64,000 nucleotides of DNA from Escherichia coli (GTDB lineage: Bacteria > Pseudomonadota > Gammaproteobacteria > Enterobacterales > Enterobacteriaceae), in assembly GCF_044324875.1 (NCBI RefSeq), contig NZ_CP172186.1, one strand, 5' to 3'. Each line of letters opens with the position of its first letter. The stretch's first letter is position 1. The notes under the pieces were generated by a model that saw only the letters and a program-made list of their open reading frames with translations, had not been told where the DNA came from and made no database searches. The position numbers were made by a program, and so were the translations under genes. Shown piece after piece: positions 3,382 through 33,163 of the stretch.

Positions 3382-3816
3382 ATGTACGGAACATGCGAAA
3401 CGCTATGCCGGGCGCTGGCAGCAAAGTATCCGGGAGATACGCCGCTGATGCTGGTTATCTGGTCCCCGGAAGAAATTCAGGCCCTCGCTGACGGAATGGA
3501 TATTTCCCTGTCCGATCATGAAATCAGGACTGTCCTGGCGCGGCTGGCGGACATCCCGGAAGACCAGCGGACTGAGTCCGGTATTTCTTCCGGCGTGGCG
3601 ATGGAGATTATCAGCAACGTGAGCGAAAACCGCCAGGTGACCGTCCCGGCTGAACTGCTGGCGTCCCTGATTCAGACCGCCGAACAGGCACTGTGGAAAC
3701 GTGAATGGGCCGCCCGTGATTACGGCCTCGCCGTCCCGGAATGCGTCACCCGCCGTCAGGCGGTGGTTAATCAGGCCCGCATCCTGCTGAAAAACAACCC
3801 ACACGAAAACGACTGA
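3382..3816 (+). CDS. leading-region hypothetical protein (paralog of 5518..5937)
   Basis: 144 aa; shares length, acidic character and a VTVPA motif with the 5518 ORF. Confidence 0.6.
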   Translation: MYGTCETLCRALAAKYPGDTPLMLVIWSPEEIQALADGMDISLSDHEIRTVLARLADIPEDQRTESGISSGVAMEIISNVSENRQVTVPAELLASLIQTAEQALWKREWAARDYGLAVPECVTRRQAVVNQARILLKNNPHEND

Positions 3817-3860: not shown

Positions 3861-4631
3861 ATGAACAAAACGCTGAATGCACTGGTTTGTCACCACGCCC
3901 GTAACCTGCTGCTGGCGCAGGGCTGGCCGGAAGAGACGGATGTTGACCAGCGTAACCCGAAGTATCCGGGCTGGATCAGCATTTATGTTCTGCTGGATGC
4001 GCCCCGGCTGGCGACGTTACTTATCAACCGTCACGGCGGCGTACTGCCGCCGCTCCTGGCCTCCGCCATTCACAAACTGACCGGAACCGGGGCGGAAGTT
4101 GTACTGTCCGGCAGTCAGTGGCAGTCGCTGCCGGTACTTCCGGCAGACGGAACGCAGGTGTCTTTCCCGTATGCCGGAGAATGGCTGACCGAAGACGAAA
4201 TCAGGGCAGTTCTTGATGCAGTGCGCGATGCGGTACGCAGTGTCAGTTGCCGGGTGACAGAAGATGCGCGGCGTATCAGGGCGGCGCTGACCACAACCGG
4301 TCAGACGTTGCTGACCCGCCAGACGCGGCGCTTTCGCCTGGTTGTGAAGGAAAGCGATCACCCCTGCTGGCTCGATGAAGACGACGAAAACCTGCCCGTG
4401 GTGCTCGATGCCATCCTGAACCGGGGCGCTCGTTTTTCTTCGGTGGAAATGTATCTGGTCAGTGAGTGTGTGGAGCATATCCTGTCCAGTGGGCTGGCCT
4501 GCGATGTGCTGCGTATACCGGATGAACCGCCCCGCCGGTGGTTTGACCGTGGTGTTCTGCGGGAGGTGGTCCGGGAAGCCCGGGCCGAAATCCGCAGCAT
4601 GGCGGATGCCCTGGCAAAAATCCGGAAATGA
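3861..4631 (+). CDS. leading-region hypothetical protein
   Basis: 256 aa ORF, same strand and codon style as neighbours. Confidence 0.6.
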
Positions 4632-6881: not shown

Positions 6882-9800
6882 ATGAGTGCACGTGGTATCA
6901 ACAAGGTCATCCTCGTCGGGGTGCGCCGTTGAAGCGCGGTGTTTTATGGAGTGTTGCCTGAAAAGCAACATGGCTTAGTGGTATAGCCATTGCATACTGT
7001 GGTTAGCCTTGCTTGGTAACAGGCTCGGAGATCCTGAAAAGGAGAGGTGAACATAGCATCCACAGAAAAGGGTGGTGAATATGGAAATCGTTATAAGTAT
7101 CACCATTCAATGCAAGATGTATATGGATAAACTGGGTTTGTTGAAGTCGAGATCTATGTGGGAAACAGGAAACCAATAACGCAGAACGATTGAAGCGTTA
7201 TTCCCGTACTAGCACAAGAAATCCGTCCGACGTTGATTGTGACCACTCTAACGGGCCAGCTATTGATGAAATAGTTAAACGATCGAAAGACATCCTAAGT
7301 ACATCGCATCTCCACACCGTGAAACTACGGGACTACCTAAACTGGATTTATACCCAGCATGGTAGCGGAGTCTCCATAGTACTCAAGGTCGGCCTGTAAT
7401 GGGTTCCGGCAGTCCGCATTATACGGAAGCAGCAAAGGTATAAATCAACCGGAAGGAAGATGAAAGCCTCACAGTGCTGCGGGGAAGGGAGACAGTTGTT
7501 AGATACATCAATCTCTAAGAGGAGGGTTAGCCAATGCTGCCTGATGAACTTGAGAAAAGATTAGATGGAATTGAGGATGCTTCAAAAAAAGGGTATCCAG
7601 TACGTAATCTATACAAAATTGCGTGTGAGCCCGGACTGTGGCTGCAAGCCTACGTGAATATACGGGCCAATGCAGGTGCACTGACTCAAGGTGTATCAAC
7701 AGATACCATTGATGGCTTTTCTATCGAAAGAGCAGAGAAGCTGGCAAAAACATTGCGGAGTAGAGAATACGTAGCGAAACCTGTACGCAGAGTTCAGATC
7801 CCAAAAAAGGACGGAAAAACCAGACCGCTGGGGATTCCAGGTGGAGACGATAAACTGGCGCAAGAAGTAGCAAGAATTATTCTGGAAAGGGTTTATGAAC
7901 CAGTATTCTCTGAACACTCTCATGGATTCAGACCAAAACGTTCGTGTGAAACTGCGCTCAGATCTATTCGTCCAGTCTGGAACGGAGTTAAATGGATCGT
8001 GGATGTTGATATCAAAGGTTTCTTTGACAATATCCCCCACAAACTATTGCTGAATACACTGGCAGAGAAAATTAAGGATAAGAATTTCCTGAAATTAATC
8101 GAACAGTGGCTGAAGGCAGGATATGTGGACAATTGGAAATACCATCGCTCATATTCTGGCACGCCACAAGGTGGGATAATTTCTCCCTTACTGGCAAATA
8201 TATACCTCGACAAACTGGACCGTTTTGTAGAACAGAATTTAATTCCTGCATATACAAGCGGTACAAAACGAAGAGCGAATCCAGATATGAACAGGCTGGC
8301 CCATAAGATTCATAAACTACGAAAGAAAGTAGACGGTATGGCAACTGATTCTGAATCAGAAAAAGAAGCCATAAAGAAAGAAATTGAACGACTGCTTGAA
8401 GAAAAACGTTCTATACCATCTCAGGTCATGAACGATCCAAACTTCAGGCGTATGTACTATGTTCGATATGCTGATGACTTCGTAATCGGTGTCATCGGCT
8501 CGAAGAAAGATGCTGAACATATATCAAGACAGGTCAGAAACTTTATTACTACTTCACTGGGATTGGAAGTTAATGAAGCAAAGACCAGGATCCGCCATAT
8601 CTCAGAAGGAGTTAATTTTTTAGGCTATGAAATCAGACAGGCAGATGCAAAGAAATTGCTGAAGCAGAAAATGCAAGGGCGGCACGCTCTCCGGAGATCC
8701 ACCACAGGAATTGTGCAGCTCTTCGTTCCTGACAATATAGCCGCTAAATTTTGTCACCAAAAGAAATATGGCTGTTATGAGAATGTGAAGGCTGTACATC
8801 GTTCAAGTCTACAAAATCTCAGTGAAGCTGAAATTGTTCTGACTTTCAACGCGGAAATGCGCGGATTGGCGAACTACTACAGTCTGGCGCTGGACATGAA
8901 ATATAAATTATCAAAATTATATTTCATATGGCAAATAAGCCTTTTTAAGACCCTGGCGAATAAACGACGTAGTTCAGTGAATAAAGTCGCCAAATCGCTA
9001 CGGCAAAATAATGGAGATCTGGCTATTACCGTTCAGGCCAAAAATGGATCCCGAAAGATTGAGGTTTTCAAACTCAAACATGTCAATCGCAACCGAACAA
9101 CGATTGTCGATACGGAACCGAGAACCGCACATATCACAACCCGCACAACAGAGATCATGCGTCGATTAGGGGCAAGGATCTGCGAGTATTGTGCGAAGAC
9201 TGGGCGCTGCGAAGTACATCATGTCAGAAAGCTAAAAGACCTGAAGAAAGGTCGTAAGGCCGGATATAAACCCAGCTTGTGGCAACTAATGATGATCGCA
9301 CGCCGCCGGAAAACGATGATTTTGTGCGCAAGTTGCCACGACAAGTTACATAGCGGAAAACTACCCGATTTGAGACAGGAAAAGGGAAGAATACTCCTGC
9401 AACCACCTGTCTCAAGCGGGGATTCTGCTAAATGAGTTTATCCCCAATAAGCTAGCAATGGAGAGCCGTATGCACTGAAAGGTGCACGTACGGTTCGGAG
9501 GGGGGGTAACGGTGATCTAACTCAAGATAAGCAGGACATATTCGCCATTTATCTTGAAAGACCACACGTACCCTACCCTACCGTCTGGGCAATGATCCGG
9601 AAGTCTGTTACATCCCCAACGGGGGCGCAGTGGCAAACCTGCAGGTCGCCACGTCAGAAAGCTGGCGCGACAAACAGACGGGGGAGATGCGGGAGCAGAC
9701 GGAATGGCACCGCGTGGTGCTGTTCGGCAAGCTCGCGGAAGTGGCTGGTGAATATCTGCGCAAGGGCGCGCAGGTCTACATCGAGGGGCAACTCCGTACC

Positions 9801-28689: not shown

Positions 28690-28935
28690 TCACCTGCGTC
28701 GCGCCGGCTGCCAGGTAAACGTGTTCTCTGCGGCACGATACGCTTTTGTTCGTTGAGCCTTTGCGGTTCTCGCTTTGCGCTCTGCCCGAATCATTCTCAA
28801 AACTTTTACACGCACTTTTCTCTTAACTTCCCGTGGCAGTTCATCCCTGCCGGACAACTTTAACTGTGCAGCCTGTGCGGCATAAGCATCGTTGATACGC
28901 TTACGTTCTGCTTCCGTCAGTTTCATCCAAGACAT
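28690..28935 (-). CDS. hypothetical highly basic small protein (cargo of the IS256-bounded insertion)
   Basis: 81 aa; strong AGGAGGA RBS 5 nt upstream of ATG. Confidence 0.45.
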   Translation of the reverse strand: MSWMKLTEAERKRINDAYAAQAAQLKLSGRDELPREVKRKVRVKVLRMIRAERKARTAKAQRTKAYRAAENTFTWQPARRR

Positions 28936-29073
28936 AATTCCTCCTGGTGACTTATCCGTGTTATGTCTTTAATCTGTATCCCCTTCGTTGCTATGCCTCC
29001 GGGATATCAGGTATTACCTTTCGAAGAATTTTATAAAAAACCACCTGTGCAGAGGGAAAGAGTGGATTTGCCC

Positions 29074-29979
29074 CTATATTTCCAGACATCTGTTATCACT
29101 TAACCCATTACAGGCCCGCTGCCGCAGATATTCCCGTGGCGAGCGATAACCCAACGCACTATGCGGATGCCATTCGTTATAATGCTCGAACGCCTCTGCA
29201 AGGTTCTTTGCTGCCGTTAACCCGTCTGGTTTGGGCATGACACTGATGTAGTCACGCTTTATCGTTTTCACGAAGCTCTCTGCTATGCCGTTACTCTCCG
29301 GACTCCGCACCGCCGTGTTCTTCGGTTCAAGCCCCAACATCCGGGCAAACTGCCGTGTTTCATTAGCCCGGTAGCATGAACCATTATCCGTCAGCCACTC
29401 TACTGGAGACGCCGGAAGCTCGTTGCCGAAGCGGCGTTCCACCGCTCCCAGCATGACGTCCTGTACTGTTTCACTGTTGAAGCCGCCCGTAGTGACCGCC
29501 CAGTGCAGTGCCTCACGGTCACAGCAGTCCAGCGCGAACGTGACTCGCAGTTTTTCTCCGTTATCACAGCGGAACTCGAACCCGTCAGAGCACCATCGCT
29601 GATTACTTTCTTTCACAGCCACTCTGCCGGTATGTGCCCGTTTCGATGGCGGTACAGCGGTTTTTCGCTCAAGCAACAGCGCATTCTGGCGCATGATCCG
29701 GTAAATACGTTTGGCATTGATCGCAGGCATACCATCAAGTTCTGTTTGTCTGCGAAGCAGCGCCCATACCCGACGATAACCATATGTGGGTAGCTCTCCG
29801 ATAACATGGTGTATACGGCGAAGCACATCCGTATCATCCGTGTGACGGCTGCGGCGGCCGTCCTTCCAGTCATCGGCTCGTCTGAGAATGACGTGCAACT
29901 GCGCACGCGACACCCGGAGACAACGGCTGACGAAGCTTACTCCCCATCCCCGGGCAATAAGGGCGCGTGCGCTATCCAC
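29074..29979 (-). CDS. insD: IS2 InsD (OrfB transposase)
   Basis: 301 aa DDE transposase ...[26 protein letters not shown]... Confidence 0.9.
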
Positions 29980-30347
29980 TTTTTTGCTCGCCCATATTCA
30001 ACGGCTTCTTTAAGGAGTTCATTTTCCATCGTTTTTTTGCCGAGCAGACGCTGGAGTTCTTTAATCTGCTTCATGGCGGCAGCAAGTTCAGAGGCAGGAA
30101 CGATCTGTTCTCCGGCAGCCACAGCAGTAAGACTTCCCTCCTGGTATTGCTTACGCCAGAGAAATAGCTGGCTGGCTGCCACACCATGTTGCCGGGCAAC
30201 AAGGGAGACCGTCATTCCCGGTTCAAAGCTCTGCTGAACGATAGCGATCTTTTCCTGTGTAGTACGCCGTCTGCGTTTCTCCGGCCCTAAGACATCAATC
30301 ATCTGTTCTCCAATGACTAGTCTAAAAACTAGTATTAAGACTATCAC
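29937..30347 (-). CDS. insC: IS2 InsC (OrfA)
   Basis: [53 protein letters not shown]... Confidence 0.9.
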
Positions 30348-30394
30348 TTATTTAAGTGATATTGGTTGTCTGGAGATTCAGGGGGCCAGTCTAA

Positions 30395-31981
30395 AGAGTA
30401 AGGAACTTACTGATTCATTTAATATTATTATCCATCAATAACTGAGCATACAAAAAAATAACAAAACTCTGACACAGATACAACCAGCTCTCTCTATATC
30501 AGACTGACATTCTTCTCAAAAAGAGGCGTGTTCTGGAACACGGAACAGAAGCAATGAACATTGTAGACAGAAACACACTCTGTTTTTTACACGAGGATAT
30601 ATGTCGGGAAAATCAGGCAGAAGAAATTAAAGGACTTTGTGCATACAAAGGGAAAGCGCGTTTCCGGTGCACCATATTAGATATTATCCCTGCTACAAAC
30701 ACCAGAGACGCGCTCATAACTCTTCTAGCGTAAAATATCCTTTCAGGCAAGGAAAAGGTCGTGATACAGAATCACGACCTTAATTTTATCGAAAACACGG
30801 ATTTTAGTATGCACATGACTGTACTCCTCAGGAGTACAGGGAAATCATAATCAGTAACAAAAACACCCGGCAACAAAAATTTAACGCGTTTACGCTATTT
30901 TTGTGACAAATATTGCAAATATGGAATCACTGTATTTTTACTGCAACAAAATCTGGTTGATCCACAGGCGGATCCGGGGTAAAAAATTATCCGGAATGTT
31001 TCTGCGTGGTGTGGTAAAACCTCTAGCCGGATTGCCTTTGCAGCAACGCAGGAACATTCCATCCTTTATCAGTACTCCTGACGCTGTAAAGACCTGGCTG
31101 ATGCAGACAGGACTGCTGATATCGAATCAAAGCTTTCTCATTTTTTCGCGTACACAAAATAAAACAAATCAGGCAATTCCTTACACTCCCCCTCTAAAAT
31201 TGAGGGTTTTTTTTTACCATATAAATTACTTGCACAGCTTTTAAAAAAATTGCAAATCTTTACTGTAGTGTCGGGCTTCATGTAGCTCAACAGGGCATGG
31301 ACTAAAAAGAAGTAAACCCATCTTTTATCTCCCTGATATGGGGGTCTTTGTGGCATAAAGAATTCCTTGAATTATTATTTTGATCATATCAACATGAAAA
31401 GAATAATACTCTGACTTTTGATTTCCAGTGCCAGATATAAAATCAAATTCACTGTAAATATCACATAATGATATCTGGCTGCCCCCAGTCACTTCCTGTA
31501 TTCAGCCACACATATAAGCCCCCTGAATTTCCTTGTGGTTTTTATGTGATAAAAACCACAAGGAAACGATGGTTGAAATAATATTTAAAATGTGAAAGAT
31601 ATCACCCGTAGAATTTTTCAATCCGACACTCCATAGAATGGACCTTTAAGATTTAATCCTCATCATGTATGAGGATTTTTTTTCTGGCAGACAAAAATAT
31701 CTTTTCAGCAATCCCTGTTCAGTTCCGGTTCTGGTGACTCTGGAAGAGGTATTGTTACACGCTATAACCTGCCGGAATGACTCAGGTCCGTTCATCTCTG
31801 ATACCATTAAAAGAAGCATTAAGCACATTCTGAGCGCCTCTTACAGAAGAAGCGGAACGCGTTCCTGGCTCCTGTTGCATAATCTTACTAACCCCATGGT
31901 TTTCTTGACTGCCAGAAACGCGCCCACAGTTTTTTTAGCCTGTCTCCGGTTCCTTGTCTAGAATACTGTTGATTTTTTGTT
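30395..31981. other. AT-rich non-coding segment with three plus-strand intrinsic terminators and a 13-bp-arm palindrome
   Basis: No convincing ORF; hairpin+T-run at ~30760..30790, ~31188..31218, ~31663..31693; palindrome CCTTGTGGTTTTT-ATGTGAT-AAAAACCACAAGG ~31530..31565. Confidence 0.5.
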
Positions 31982-33163
31982 TGAACCGCCCCGGGTTTCC
32001 TGGAGAGTGTTTTATCTGTGAACTCAGGCTGCCAGATCATCGTTTCCGATGGAAGCATAATAAGCTTTTTCTGCTTCTGCCGGTGGGATATGGCCCAGCC
32101 TTTCCAGCAATCGTCGATTGTTATACCAGTCCACCCACGTGAGTGTGGCCAGCTCCACTTCTGTCCGGTTTTTCCAGCTCTTACGGTGTATTACCTCCGC
32201 TTTGTAAAGGCCATTGATGCTCTCCGCCATCGCGTTGTCATACGAGTCACCAGTACTTCCTGTTGATGCCAGTAATCCGGCTTCCTTAAGCCGCTGTGTG
32301 TAGGCCAGCGATACATACTGAGAACCTTTATCACTGTGATGGACTGTGCCGGACGGTCGACGGGCCCATAACGCCTGCTCCAGAGCATCCAGCACGAATG
32401 TCGTTTCCATAGACGATGAGACCCGCCACCCCACGATGTATCCGGCAAACACATCAATGATGAACGCCACATAGACGACCCCCTGCCATGTGCTGACGTA
32501 AGTAAAATCAGCCACCCACAACTGGTCAGGACGTTCTGCCACAAACTGACGGTTTACGCGGTCGCCTGCGGCAACGGCTTTCCGGCTGACGGTAGTGCGG
32601 ACCTTTTTACCCCGGAGAACACCGGCAAGTCCCATAACCGCCATGAGGCGCGCCACTGTACATCTGGCTACCCTGATTCCTTCCCGTAACAACTGACGCC
32701 AGACTTTACGCACACCGTATACCTGATGATTCCCATCGTATACGCGCAGTATCTCTTTCTTCAGCCAGTCATCGCGCTGCGCACGGGCACTGCGTTTATA
32801 AGGATGATGTCGCTGTTGCTGACAGTGGTAATACGTTGACGGGGCAATATGTAGTTCACTGCATACCGGTCCGACCCCGTACAGCTTACGCAGCTTATCC
32901 AGCAGTGGCATCACTTTTTCCAGAGGCGGTCGAACTCCGCCTTCGCAAAATAAGCGGAAGCCTGGCGAAGGATATCGTTACTGCGGCGCAGTTCACGATT
33001 TTCACGTTCCAGCTCTTTCAGACGCTGACGTTCAGCGGTGGTGAGCCCGCCATCACCGCCTCCGGTATCCCGCTCATGCTGGCGTACCCAGACACGCAGG
33101 GTCTCTGGCGTACAGCCAATCTTTGGAGCAATGGAACAAATTGCCGCCCACTGTGAGTCATAT
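31982..33163 (-). mobile_element. IS629/IS1203-like element, copy B, 5'-truncated
   Basis: orfB 32024..32914 intact; orfA loses its first ~30 codons at the junction with the IS66-family element. Confidence 0.8.

What the first reader, a model, noticed from the sequence alone, without database searches (positions are those of the whole stretch)
30395..31981. AT-rich 1.6-kb non-coding cargo with three evenly spaced intrinsic terminators
Trapped between IS2 and IS629, this segment has no convincing ORF on either strand yet holds three plus-strand hairpin+T-run terminators about 430-470 bp apart and a 13-bp-arm palindrome (CCTTGTGGTTTTT...AAAAACCACAAGG). That pattern suggests small RNA genes or the decayed regulatory region of a lost locus.
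Basis: seen in the sequence. Interest (0 to 1): 0.45.

Follow-up and report, generated by a model that had tools for sequence, protein, structure and literature searches.

The report
Conserved non-coding plasmid cargo, probable small-RNA cluster
This 1.6-kb gene-less stretch is not random debris: it is an unannotated non-coding module kept on three unrelated kinds of E. coli plasmid, with conserved hairpins and transcription terminators that most likely mark several small RNA genes of unknown target.

Summary
The observation largely holds. Window 30394-31981 is AT-rich and has no ORF conserved in its relatives. It carries strong plus-strand terminators T2 (31190-31215) and T3 (31655-31685), plus weaker T1 (30755-30781). 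The "even spacing" fails because a fourth hairpin sits at 31330-31344. The palindrome (31528-31566) is real but specific to one lineage.

IS2 (29063-30393, AAGAG duplication) is an insertion into a larger module. That module continues left to an 81-aa gene (28690-28935) and ends near 31955.

Relatives occur only on E. coli plasmids, in three lineages:
- A: IncI1-type large plasmids, about 99% identical.
- B: 8.9-kb ColE1-type colicin plasmids and a 5.7-kb plasmid, about 79%, inserted between mbeD and cer.
- C: rearranged, in 4.4-5.6-kb Rep_3 plasmids.

No copy was found in chromosomes or phages. Two single-motif scans of species-representative genomes and metagenomes found no further lineage.

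Conservation is blockwise and drops after terminators. One 13-pair helix survives in all three lineages with compensatory and G-U changes. No Rfam, Pfam, cer, oriT or hok/sok match was found.

Best reading: a functional non-coding cargo holding about five sRNA-like units. No expression data exist and the targets are unknown. A decayed remnant or a DNA-level cis element remain possible.

The parts
28690..28935 (-). 81-aa basic protein gene (WP_045148228) that belongs to the same module, left of the IS2 insertion. It is intact here and frameshifted in type B.
   Evidence: ORF. Annotated in relatives. Homologues are 62-98% identical and some sit next to rop in small ColE1-type plasmids. No Pfam or NCBIfam family. 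The type B frameshift was read from the and 58 sequences.
29035..29062 (-). 3' end (weak hairpin plus T6 on the minus strand) of the left sRNA-like unit UL, cut off from its body by IS2. Includes the left copy of the AAGAG target duplication (29058-29062).
   Evidence: Sequence. Aligned with the strong minus-strand terminators of types B and C.
29063..30393 (-). IS2, a secondary insertion into the module and not part of it.
   Evidence: 1331 bp between AAGAG duplications. The junction is uninterrupted in L005, which carries a different, independent IS2 insertion at about 30461/30468.
30394..30490 (-). Body of unit UL (about 118 nt before the IS2 insertion). Its 3' part is the 'IR module' AAATCAGnnAnTTCCTTAC.
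   Evidence: Conserved in A, B and C, starting at GGTTGTATCT just downstream of a TTGAGA-15-TATAGA/TACAAA promoter-like site in A and B.
30527..30542 (-). Minus-strand terminator-like hairpin upstream of UL.
   Evidence: The sequence is conserved in type B.
30586..30790 (+). Unit U1: promoter-like TTTACA-16-GAAAAT (30586-30613), internal hairpin 30655-30669/30700-30714, and terminator T1 (30755-30781).
   Evidence: The same promoter-like site is at the orthologous place in type B. The T1 stem is kept with one compensatory change and is also called on the minus strand in B. The block is 92-96% identical to B.
30782..31215 (+). Unit U2, a structured region of about 430 nt ending at terminator T2 (stem 31190-31206, T-run to 31215). 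Contains the conserved helix 30993-31007/31046-31060, whose loop carries an invariant GTAAAnnCTCTAGCCGGATnGC.
   Evidence: Plus-strand fold z = -4.2 against -1.85 for the minus strand. The helix has 13 pairs, 100% paired in A, B and C, with 2 compensatory and 3 G-U-type changes. A T2 equivalent is present in B and C.
31244..31352 (+). Unit U2b: a conserved block of about 100 nt ending in hairpin 31330-31344 plus a T-rich tail.
   Evidence: 92-100% identical to B, with identity dropping after the hairpin. The hairpin is called in A and, stronger, in B.
31353..31590 (.). Variable spacer (36-76% identity to type B) holding the lineage-specific palindrome 31528-31566.
   Evidence: IS1 is inserted at 31552-31560 in another type A lineage.
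31591..31689 (+). Unit U3: runs of 40 and 34 nt identical to type B, a small hairpin 31630-31642, and terminator T3 (31655-31677 plus T8).
   Evidence: Identity falls to 60% immediately after the T-run.
31690..31955 (.). GC-richer right end of the module (48-96% identity to B), with no conserved frame. In type B it faces the end of the mob operon. It may be decayed sequence.
   Evidence: A and B diverge after about 31955.

Best explanation
The segment is the core of a non-coding accessory module, about 2.1 kb before IS2 split it, that travels on small E. coli plasmids. Here it lies as a captured fragment in an IS-rich spot of an IncI1-type plasmid.

It most likely encodes a cluster of about five short transcription units:
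- UL on the minus strand;
- U1, U2, U2b and U3 on the plus strand.

Each unit ends at an intrinsic terminator. U2 is a structured RNA of about 430 nt with a conserved long hairpin. UL and U2 share a 3' module, AAAUCAGnnAnUUCCUUAC followed by a terminator, whose UUCCUU stretch could pair with Shine-Dalgarno-like AAGGAA sequences.

The inferred mechanism is that these are regulatory RNAs, either base-pairing or protein-binding, acting on host or co-resident plasmid transcripts.

Shown: the anatomy, the conservation pattern, the structure and the distribution.
Inferred: transcription, the promoters, and any target.
For: 1. Distribution. The module is found in 36 of 5426 complete E. coli genomes, on plasmids only, with a median of 3 places per genome. 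It sits on three unrelated backbones:
- IncI1-type plasmids;
- ColE1-type plasmids, where it replaces ColE1 3739-3790 between mbeD and cer;
- Rep_3 plasmids of 4.4-5.6 kb.
No further lineage turned up. Whole-segment blastn found nothing in phages or chromosomes. Two scans of species-representative genomes and metagenomes with the single U2 hairpin-loop motif found only types A, B and C. A viral-contig scan with the IR-module motif gave chance hits only.

2. Selection-like pattern between A and B (78% identity overall).
- There are 8 identical runs of at least 24 nt (51, 40, 36, 35, 34, 34, 25, 25), against 0.8 expected and a maximum of 4 in 2000 column shuffles.
- Window variance is 4 times binomial.
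- Identity drops right after T2, T2b and T3.
- Several of the A/B-conserved blocks are the parts that survive in the distant type C: the UL body, the stretch just after T1, and the U2 hairpin.

3. Terminators.
- T2 and T3 exceed chance (0 of 300 shuffles).
- Type B has terminator-like sites at the orthologous positions: 10 found against 1.5 +/- 1.2 expected.
- Type C keeps T2-like and UL terminators.

4. Structure.
- U2 folds with z = -4.2 on the plus strand only.
- Helix 10 is fully kept in all three lineages with compensatory and G-U changes.
- 17 of 100 predicted pairs change on both sides, against 1-8 for slid controls.

5. Not coding.
- No ORF is kept with a conserved frame.
- In the 59-aa ORF almost every nucleotide change alters the amino acid.
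- No Pfam hit.
Against: - There are no expression data.
- Promoter-like matches are weak (9 of 12) and no more numerous than in shuffles. Only the U1 site recurs at the orthologous place.
- The short units do not fold better than shuffled sequence (z between +0.6 and -1.8).
- Covariation rests on three lineages and on a structure predicted from the same alignment.
- No complementary target was found in the 64-kb window.
- UL is disrupted by two independent IS2 insertions in type A lineages, so at least that unit is dispensable on IncI1 plasmids.
- A and B plasmids share cells, so patchy gene conversion could add to the block pattern.
Confidence: 0.5

Rival explanations
1. Decayed remnant with no present function. 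The segment would be what is left of a lost gene cluster or plasmid backbone, its terminators and hairpins being fossils. It persists because it hitch-hikes on successful plasmids, and the conserved blocks reflect recombination between co-resident copies rather than selection.
For: - The neighbouring 81-aa gene is frameshifted in type B.
- The right end (31690-31955) has shifting frames.
- Type A is riddled with IS2, IS1 and IS629 insertions.
- Types A, B and C co-occur in the same strains, which allows gene conversion.
- The distribution is narrow: 36 of 5426 genomes.
Against: - Identical runs of 34-51 nt lie beside stretches of 36-60% identity. These are too short and too many for conversion tracts and far exceed chance.
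- Several of the same blocks, and the helix with compensatory changes, survive in the much more distant, rearranged type C.
- No coding ancestor or Pfam trace was found anywhere.
- A 5.7-kb plasmid annotated with only rop, mob genes, a small replication-initiation ORF and an IS fragment still keeps the module.
Confidence: 0.25
2. DNA-level cis-acting region. The hairpins would act in single-stranded or double-stranded DNA: priming signals for complementary-strand synthesis after conjugative transfer (ssi or primosome assembly sites), protein-binding sites, or a transcriptional insulator between mob and neighbouring genes. They would not be RNA genes.
For: - All small carriers except pGF43-E are mobilisable plasmids.
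- In type C the structured strand is the strand that carries the oriT nick sequence GTGCGCCCT, which, from general knowledge of MOBQ transfer, would be the strand transferred.
- A perfectly conserved 25-mer holds AAGCGG next to the palindrome GGAACGCGTTCC (31841-31865). From my memory of the literature, that hexamer is associated with primosome assembly sites.
- Outward-facing terminators at both ends of 30394-31215 would insulate neighbours.
Against: - Long T-runs directly after GC-rich stems are the signature of transcription termination, not of priming sites.
- G-U-type changes in the conserved helix are better tolerated in RNA.
- pGF43-E carries the type C region but no mob genes.
- A single AAGCGG hexamer is expected by chance in 1.6 kb.
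- No repeats typical of iterons or partition sites are present.
Confidence: 0.15
3. Hidden small-protein genes or type I toxin-antitoxin pairs. Very short ORFs would be the real products, for example the 26-aa ORF at 31321-31241 on the minus strand with a GGGAG ribosome-binding site, antisense to unit U2b.
For: - The 26-aa ORF is intact, with a start codon and SD, in both A and B.
- It is fully overlapped by a conserved plus-strand unit, an arrangement like type I toxin-antitoxin loci.
- A motif flanking the module in types B and C lies just upstream of hok/pnd promoters on other plasmids.
Against: - The peptide (MGLLLFSPCPVELHEARHYSKDLQFF) is not a hydrophobic membrane toxin.
- Its two A/B differences are both non-synonymous.
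- The sok covariance model does not match the module, though it does match true hok/sok loci.
- pEC332_05 has a 4-nt deletion next to the start codon.
Confidence: 0.05

Closest known systems
Plasmid-borne small regulatory RNAs (ColE1 RNAI and Rcd, R1 Sok and CopA, F FinP)
   Same: Short non-coding units on plasmids, each ending in an intrinsic terminator, and maintained without any protein product. They sit in the accessory or maintenance part of small mobilisable plasmids.
   Different: There is no sequence or structure match to any Rfam family, although RNAI and sok are found at their true sites in the same or related records. The known RNAs sit next to the gene or origin they control. Here no target gene is adjacent, and several units are clustered.
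sRNA genes in AT-rich horizontally acquired islands (Salmonella island-encoded Isr sRNAs, EHEC prophage sRNAs); named from my own knowledge, not tested here
   Same: AT-rich foreign DNA without ORFs that carries several independent promoter-to-terminator units.
   Different: Those islands are chromosomal or prophage-borne and were defined by expression data. This module is plasmid-only and has no expression evidence.
Variable cargo segments beside the multimer-resolution site of ColE1-type plasmids; named from my own knowledge of the small-plasmid literature
   Same: In type B the module is a discrete insert of about 2.3 kb at the mob/cer junction, replacing 52 bp of ColE1.
   Different: Known cargo there is protein-coding (resistance or colicin genes). 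This insert has no intact gene in type B. No Xer core site is present in the window or in pEC332_05.
hok/sok-type (type I) toxin-antitoxin loci
   Same: Size range of 400-600 bp per unit, overlapping sense and antisense units, strong terminators. A flanking motif of about 50 nt is shared with the region upstream of hok/pnd promoters.
   Different: No Hok-like ORF, no sok model hit, and the motif is absent from type A.

Membership tests
Intrinsic (Rho-independent) terminator | GC-rich stem-loop followed directly by a T-run on the transcribed strand | tested here: met
   T2 has 5 pairs plus T9, and T3 has 9 pairs plus T8. Two such sites occurred in 0 of 300 shuffles. Both are present at orthologous sites in type B. 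T1 has an 11-pair stem but only 5 T in 8, so it counts as weak.
Base-pairing sRNA gene | Own promoter, discrete transcript, terminator, and conservation confined to the transcribed part | tested here: inconclusive
   Terminators and blockwise conservation are met. Promoter-like sites are weak, and only the U1 site recurs in type B. Transcripts cannot be tested with these tools.
Any Rfam 15 family | Covariance-model match at E <= 1 | tested here: not met
   The only hit in window 29500-33000 is the ALIL pseudoknot inside the IS629-like element. There is none in the homologous regions of L001, L003 or L006.
ColE1-type replication origin (RNAII/RNAI) | RNAI antisense RNA with three stem-loops overlapping the 5' end of the primer RNA | tested here: not met
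   The RNAI model hits the true origins of L001 (4689-4791) and L003 (90-191) but nothing in the module. Every carrier has another replicon: ColE1, Rep_3 or IncI1.
hok/sok type I toxin-antitoxin | Hok-family toxin ORF plus Sok antisense RNA | tested here: not met
   The sok model scores 98 bits on a real locus and nothing in the module. No Hok-like ORF appears among conserved small ORFs.
cer / Xer multimer-resolution site | 30-bp XerC-spacer-XerD core | tested here: not met
   The core is found in ColE1 (3909-3938), pPK8275 (8144-8173) and L007, outside the module. No match with up to 7 mismatches exists in the window or in pEC332_05.
MOBQ-type oriT | Inverted repeat followed by the nick sequence (T)AAGTGCGCCCT | tested here: not met
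   The IR module has hairpin-TAAGTGTAAGGAA and lacks GCGCCCT. The real oriT (GTGTGCGCCCT) lies upstream of the relaxase gene in L006.
Degraded protein-coding gene | Recognisable similarity to a protein family, or a frame shared between relatives | tested here: not met
   No credible Pfam hit at E <= 10 for ten long stop-free segments from types A and B. Frames are not shared between A, B and C. The right end (31690-31955) remains uncertain.
IS2 insertion (flank, not the finding itself) | 1331-bp element with a 5-bp target duplication | tested here: met
   29063-30393 lies between AAGAG copies. An empty site is seen in L005. The 1331-bp length and 5-bp duplication of IS2 are from my own knowledge.

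The most novel reading that the evidence does not exclude
The module would be a new, self-contained 'RNA-only' plasmid cargo: a cluster of previously undescribed regulatory RNAs that has moved between three unrelated plasmid backbones. One of them is a structured RNA of about 430 nt with a conserved hairpin whose loop carries GCCGGAU. Up to three diverged copies are kept in the same poultry-associated E. coli cells, which would suggest RNA-mediated cross-talk between co-resident plasmids or control of the host.
Probability: 0.3. Interest if true: 0.65.

Novelty: new variant of a known kind. Interest (0 to 1): 0.45.

Why it matters
Small 'cryptic' plasmids are usually explained by the proteins they carry. 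Here a 5.7-kb plasmid keeps this non-coding module as essentially its only cargo beyond replication and mobilisation functions and an IS fragment. A 4.4-kb plasmid has only its replication gene annotated and still keeps the type C version. The same module also sits on colicin plasmids and on large IncI1 plasmids of poultry E. coli.

If the units are expressed RNAs, they would form an unannotated class of plasmid cargo. Such cargo could influence host physiology or plasmid-plasmid interactions in strains relevant to food-chain spread of resistance plasmids. They would also be new families for RNA databases. If the module turns out to be inert, it serves as a useful marker of plasmid recombination history.

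Tried and rejected
- **Rfam.** Scans of the window region and of three relatives found nothing in the module.
- **ColE1 comparison.** No homology to the module. It is an insert replacing ColE1 3739-3790.
- **cer/Xer core search.** Absent from the window and from pEC332_05.
- **Replication-origin idea.**
  - Type C plasmids first looked Rep-less.
  - Rotating the record revealed a 233-aa Rep_3-like initiator across the record start.
  - In the related pGF43-E, 22-bp repeats lie upstream of the rep gene.
  - Every carrier has its own replicon, so this idea was rejected.
- **MOBQ oriT mimic** in the IR module. Rejected; the true oriT is elsewhere.
- **Search for a coding ancestor.**
  - Pfam on six-frame segments.
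  - Conserved-ORF scans.
  - blastn against plasmids, E. coli genomes and phages.
  - No ancestor was found.
- **Pattern scans of public collections.** All hits were known types A, B or C, or chance.
  - Genome contigs gave one chance hit.
  - Metagenome contigs gave only A, B or C plus three unrelated contigs.
  - Viral contigs gave nine chance hits.
- **Literature.** Searches by sequence motif, by plasmid names and by topic found nothing relevant.
- **CsrA-sponge idea for U2.** About nine GGA motifs in 434 nt by my hand count, against about five expected, and only one sits in a conserved loop. Not pursued.
- **Antisense targets.** A search for targets of the units elsewhere in the 64-kb window found nothing.
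- **The 81-aa neighbour.** No family in Pfam or NCBIfam. Structure prediction was not run.
Full report
**What is at the coordinates**

Window 30394-31981 has GC 0.33-0.47, while the flanks are at 0.51-0.60. The mechanical ORF list gives nothing longer than 113 aa.

- T1 at 30755-30781;
- T2 at 31190-31206 followed by nine T;
- T3 at 31655-31677 followed by eight T.

It also finds a fourth plus-strand hairpin at 31330-31344 and a minus-strand one at 30542-30527. With a stricter rule (at least 7 T in 8), T2 and T3 remain. Two such sites never occurred in 300 dinucleotide shuffles, where the mean was 0.017. T1 has a long stem but a poor tail.

The spacings are 425 and 471 bp as reported, but the fourth hairpin makes 'evenly spaced' an accident. 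The palindrome is real, with 18-nt perfect arms at 31528-31545 and 31549-31566.

**The flanks**

The left neighbour is IS2 at 29063-30393. It is 1331 bp long and sits between two copies of AAGAG, at 29058-62 and 30394-98.

In plasmid pTB-nb2 the two sides of this junction are contiguous, and a different IS2 copy sits about 70 bp further in. IS2 is therefore a late insertion into a larger unit. That unit continues left through a promoter region to an 81-aa gene on the minus strand (28690-28935), until an IS1414 fragment cuts it at about 28650.

On the right, homology to the diverged relatives stops at about 31955, 26 bp before the IS629-like element that starts at 31982. A lineage without that IS shows the native right flank. 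This flank resembles a 4.4-kb Rep_3 plasmid, pGF43-E.

**Relatives**

blastn finds the segment only on E. coli plasmids: 36 of 5426 complete genomes, no chromosomal place, and a median of three places per genome. PLSDB gives the same picture, and phages give nothing. There are three lineages.

- **Type A** is about 99% identical. It lies in an IS-rich spot of IncI1-type plasmids, next to remnants of a mobilisable plasmid (MobC, MobA, relaxase, MazEF).
- **Type B** is about 79% identical.
  - It lies in 8.9-kb ColE1-type colicin plasmids, a colicin R plasmid and the 5.7-kb pEC332_05.
  - In the 8.9-kb ColE1-type plasmid compared in detail (pPK8275-8kb) it is part of an insert of about 2.3 kb that replaces ColE1 3739-3790. 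That position is between mbeD and an intact cer site.
- **Type C** is a distant, rearranged version in 4.4-5.6-kb plasmids with a Rep_3-type initiator. It lies in a stretch of about 1.4 kb with no annotated gene.

Exact-pattern scans with the most conserved hairpin-loop motif found only A, B and C again, plus chance hits. These covered 100,044 species-representative genomes and the JGI metagenome collection. A viral-contig scan with the IR-module motif gave chance hits only.

Several strains carry two or three types at once on different plasmids, for example LH10-b-1, GF43, 135, EF5-18-41, PKF4, TUM1886 and TUM9803.

**Coding or not**

None of the ORFs of type A is kept in type B. Indels of 14, 5, 5 and 12 nt break the frames.

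The 59-aa ORF (30554-30733) loses its start in B. Over its shared part, nearly every nucleotide difference changes the amino acid.

A scan for Shine-Dalgarno-preceded ORFs of at least 10 aa that stay intact in B finds four short ones of 14-29 aa. The only one with a good ribosome-binding site and an arrangement worth noting is a 26-aa ORF. It is not hydrophobic, and both of its two differences are non-synonymous.

Ten long stop-free segments from A and B have no credible Pfam match even at E <= 10.

Between B and C the invariant loop sequence is read in one frame, and in A in another because of a 5-nt insertion. The core is therefore non-coding.

The GC-richer right end (31690-31955) shows fragments of shared peptide in shifting frames. 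It may be decayed sequence from the end of a mob region.

**Signs of constraint**

The A/B alignment is 78% identical overall but very uneven.
- There are eight identical runs of 24 nt or more (51, 40, 36, 35, 34, 34, 25, 25), against 0.8 expected and at most 4 in 2000 column shuffles.
- The variance of 25-column windows is four times binomial.
- High-identity blocks are 30420-30494, 30599-30848, 30899-31198, 31244-31342 and 31591-31689.
- Identity falls directly after T2, after the 31330-31344 hairpin and after T3.
- The palindrome lies in the least conserved stretch (31343-31590). It is absent from B and is the site of an IS1 insertion in another type A lineage.
- Type B has terminator-like sites at all orthologous positions, including a strong minus-strand one at the left edge. 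Ten were found against 1.5 +/- 1.2 expected.
- Type C keeps the T2-like and left-edge terminators.
- The promoter-like site TTTACA-16-GAAAAT recurs at the orthologous place in A and B.

**Structure**

The stretch between T1 and T2 (30782-31215) folds with z = -4.2 as plus-strand RNA, against -1.85 for the minus strand.

A three-way alignment with type C shows a 13-pair helix at 30993-31007 / 31046-31060.
- It is paired in all three lineages.
- It has two double (compensatory) changes and three G-U-type single changes that are only compatible with the plus strand.
- Its loop keeps GTAAAnnCTCTAGCCGGATnGC unchanged.

Over the whole predicted structure, 17 of 100 pairs change on both sides, against 1-8 in slid controls. 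The structure was predicted from the same three sequences, so this overstates the support.

The short units do not fold better than shuffles. That is common for small RNAs but gives no support.

**A repeated 3' module**

The sequence AAATCAGnnAnTTCCTTAC(AC)T followed by a CCCTC...GAGGG hairpin and eight or nine T occurs in three places:
- at T2, on the plus strand;
- in inverted orientation at the left edge of the segment, as the end of the minus-strand unit UL;
- in degenerate form at the far left of the type B insert.

In this window IS2 separates the body of UL from its hairpin and T-run.

**Interpretation**

Four features fit a cluster of small transcription units best: strong terminators, conservation bounded by them, strand-specific conserved structure, and no coding signal. 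I propose UL (minus strand) and U1, U2, U2b and U3 (plus strand).

What they regulate is unknown. No extended complementarity exists elsewhere in the 64-kb window. No Rfam family matches, although RNAI and sok are detected at their proper sites in related records.

I put this reading at 0.5. The rivals are:
- an inert decayed remnant (0.25);
- a DNA-level cis-acting region such as priming signals or an insulator (0.15);
- hidden small peptides or a type I toxin-antitoxin pair (0.05).

Points against my preferred reading:
- promoter calls are weak;
- only three lineages are available;
- UL has been disrupted twice independently by IS2 in type A;
- A and B share cells, which could allow gene conversion.

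**Comparison with known systems**

The module works most like plasmid-borne regulatory RNAs and like sRNA genes in AT-rich acquired islands. It is not a member of any described family:
- Rfam: none;
- ColE1 origin: RNAI model negative;
- hok/sok: negative;
- cer: core absent;
- MOBQ oriT: nick sequence absent.

Its position in type B, a discrete insert at the mob/cer junction of ColE1-type plasmids, matches the known habit of these plasmids of collecting cargo there. I state that habit from memory of the literature, not from a test here. Three literature searches found nothing on this region.

**Verdict**

The finding is real and more than debris. The 'even spacing' and the palindrome are incidental. 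Interest is moderate, because this is an unannotated, narrowly distributed, apparently constrained RNA-only plasmid cargo that can readily be tested by transcript mapping.

Noticed in passing
window 28690-28935 (minus strand): An 81-aa, very basic protein (WP_045148228) with no Pfam or NCBIfam family belongs to the same module. Homologues are 62-98% identical, and some lie directly downstream of rop in small ColE1-type plasmids. It is frameshifted in all type B copies.
   Followed up: partly
L001 8863-8910 (type B flank); L006 4250-4300 and 4512-4561; L012 2259-2301; L013 3001-3054: A motif of about 50 nt (TTGACATCCTC..CCCTGAAGGAC..GGGTTTTACGGCG) flanks the module in types B and C but not A. 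The search that included it matched 594 enterobacterial plasmid records, most of them through this motif. It sits immediately upstream of hok/pnd promoters in IncI1 and IncI2 plasmids. In type C two copies form a 51-nt inverted repeat around 211 bp. Its function is unknown.
   Followed up: partly
window 30766-30770 versus L001 418-422: The loop of hairpin T1 is ACAGA in type A and its reverse complement TCTGT in type B, while the stem is kept. This looks like a flip of the hairpin loop, for example by template switching.
   Followed up: no
E. coli genomes listed: Types A, B and C of the module co-occur in the same strains on different plasmids far more often than their individual frequencies (about 0.4% each) would predict. 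At least eight of 36 carrier genomes hold two or three types. Most carriers are from poultry.
   Followed up: partly
L005 6605-8004; L040 4172-4939: Independent IS insertions hit the module in different type A lineages. A second IS2 sits at about window 30461/30468, inside unit UL. An IS1 sits at 31552-31560, inside the palindrome.
   Followed up: yes
L028 4099-4216; L040 5392-5455: A unit of about 61 nt (GTCGCTCCGGCGACC...GCGCCTTCGGGTGG) is tandemly duplicated in pGF43-E and present once in the native right flank of type A. It links type A to a Rep_3 small-plasmid ancestor. Its function is unknown.
   Followed up: no
L006 4781-4909 (plus strand): A 42-aa, very hydrophobic ORF (MNEYIVAILQCNIYYFLIVFSLLFYFFSIFPKIIFLYSVSRY) lies in the AT-rich part of the type C region, with a 10/12 promoter-like site inside it. 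It has no counterpart in A or B and may be spurious.
   Followed up: no
window 32840-32956 (minus strand): An ALIL frameshift pseudoknot (Rfam RF01497, 116 bits) lies inside the IS629-like element on the right flank. That element appears truncated at about 33163 by an IS66-family element.
   Followed up: no
window 31841-31865: A 25-nt run identical between types A and B contains AAGCGG next to the perfect palindrome GGAACGCGTTCC. From memory, that hexamer is associated with primosome assembly sites. A single occurrence is within chance.
   Followed up: no
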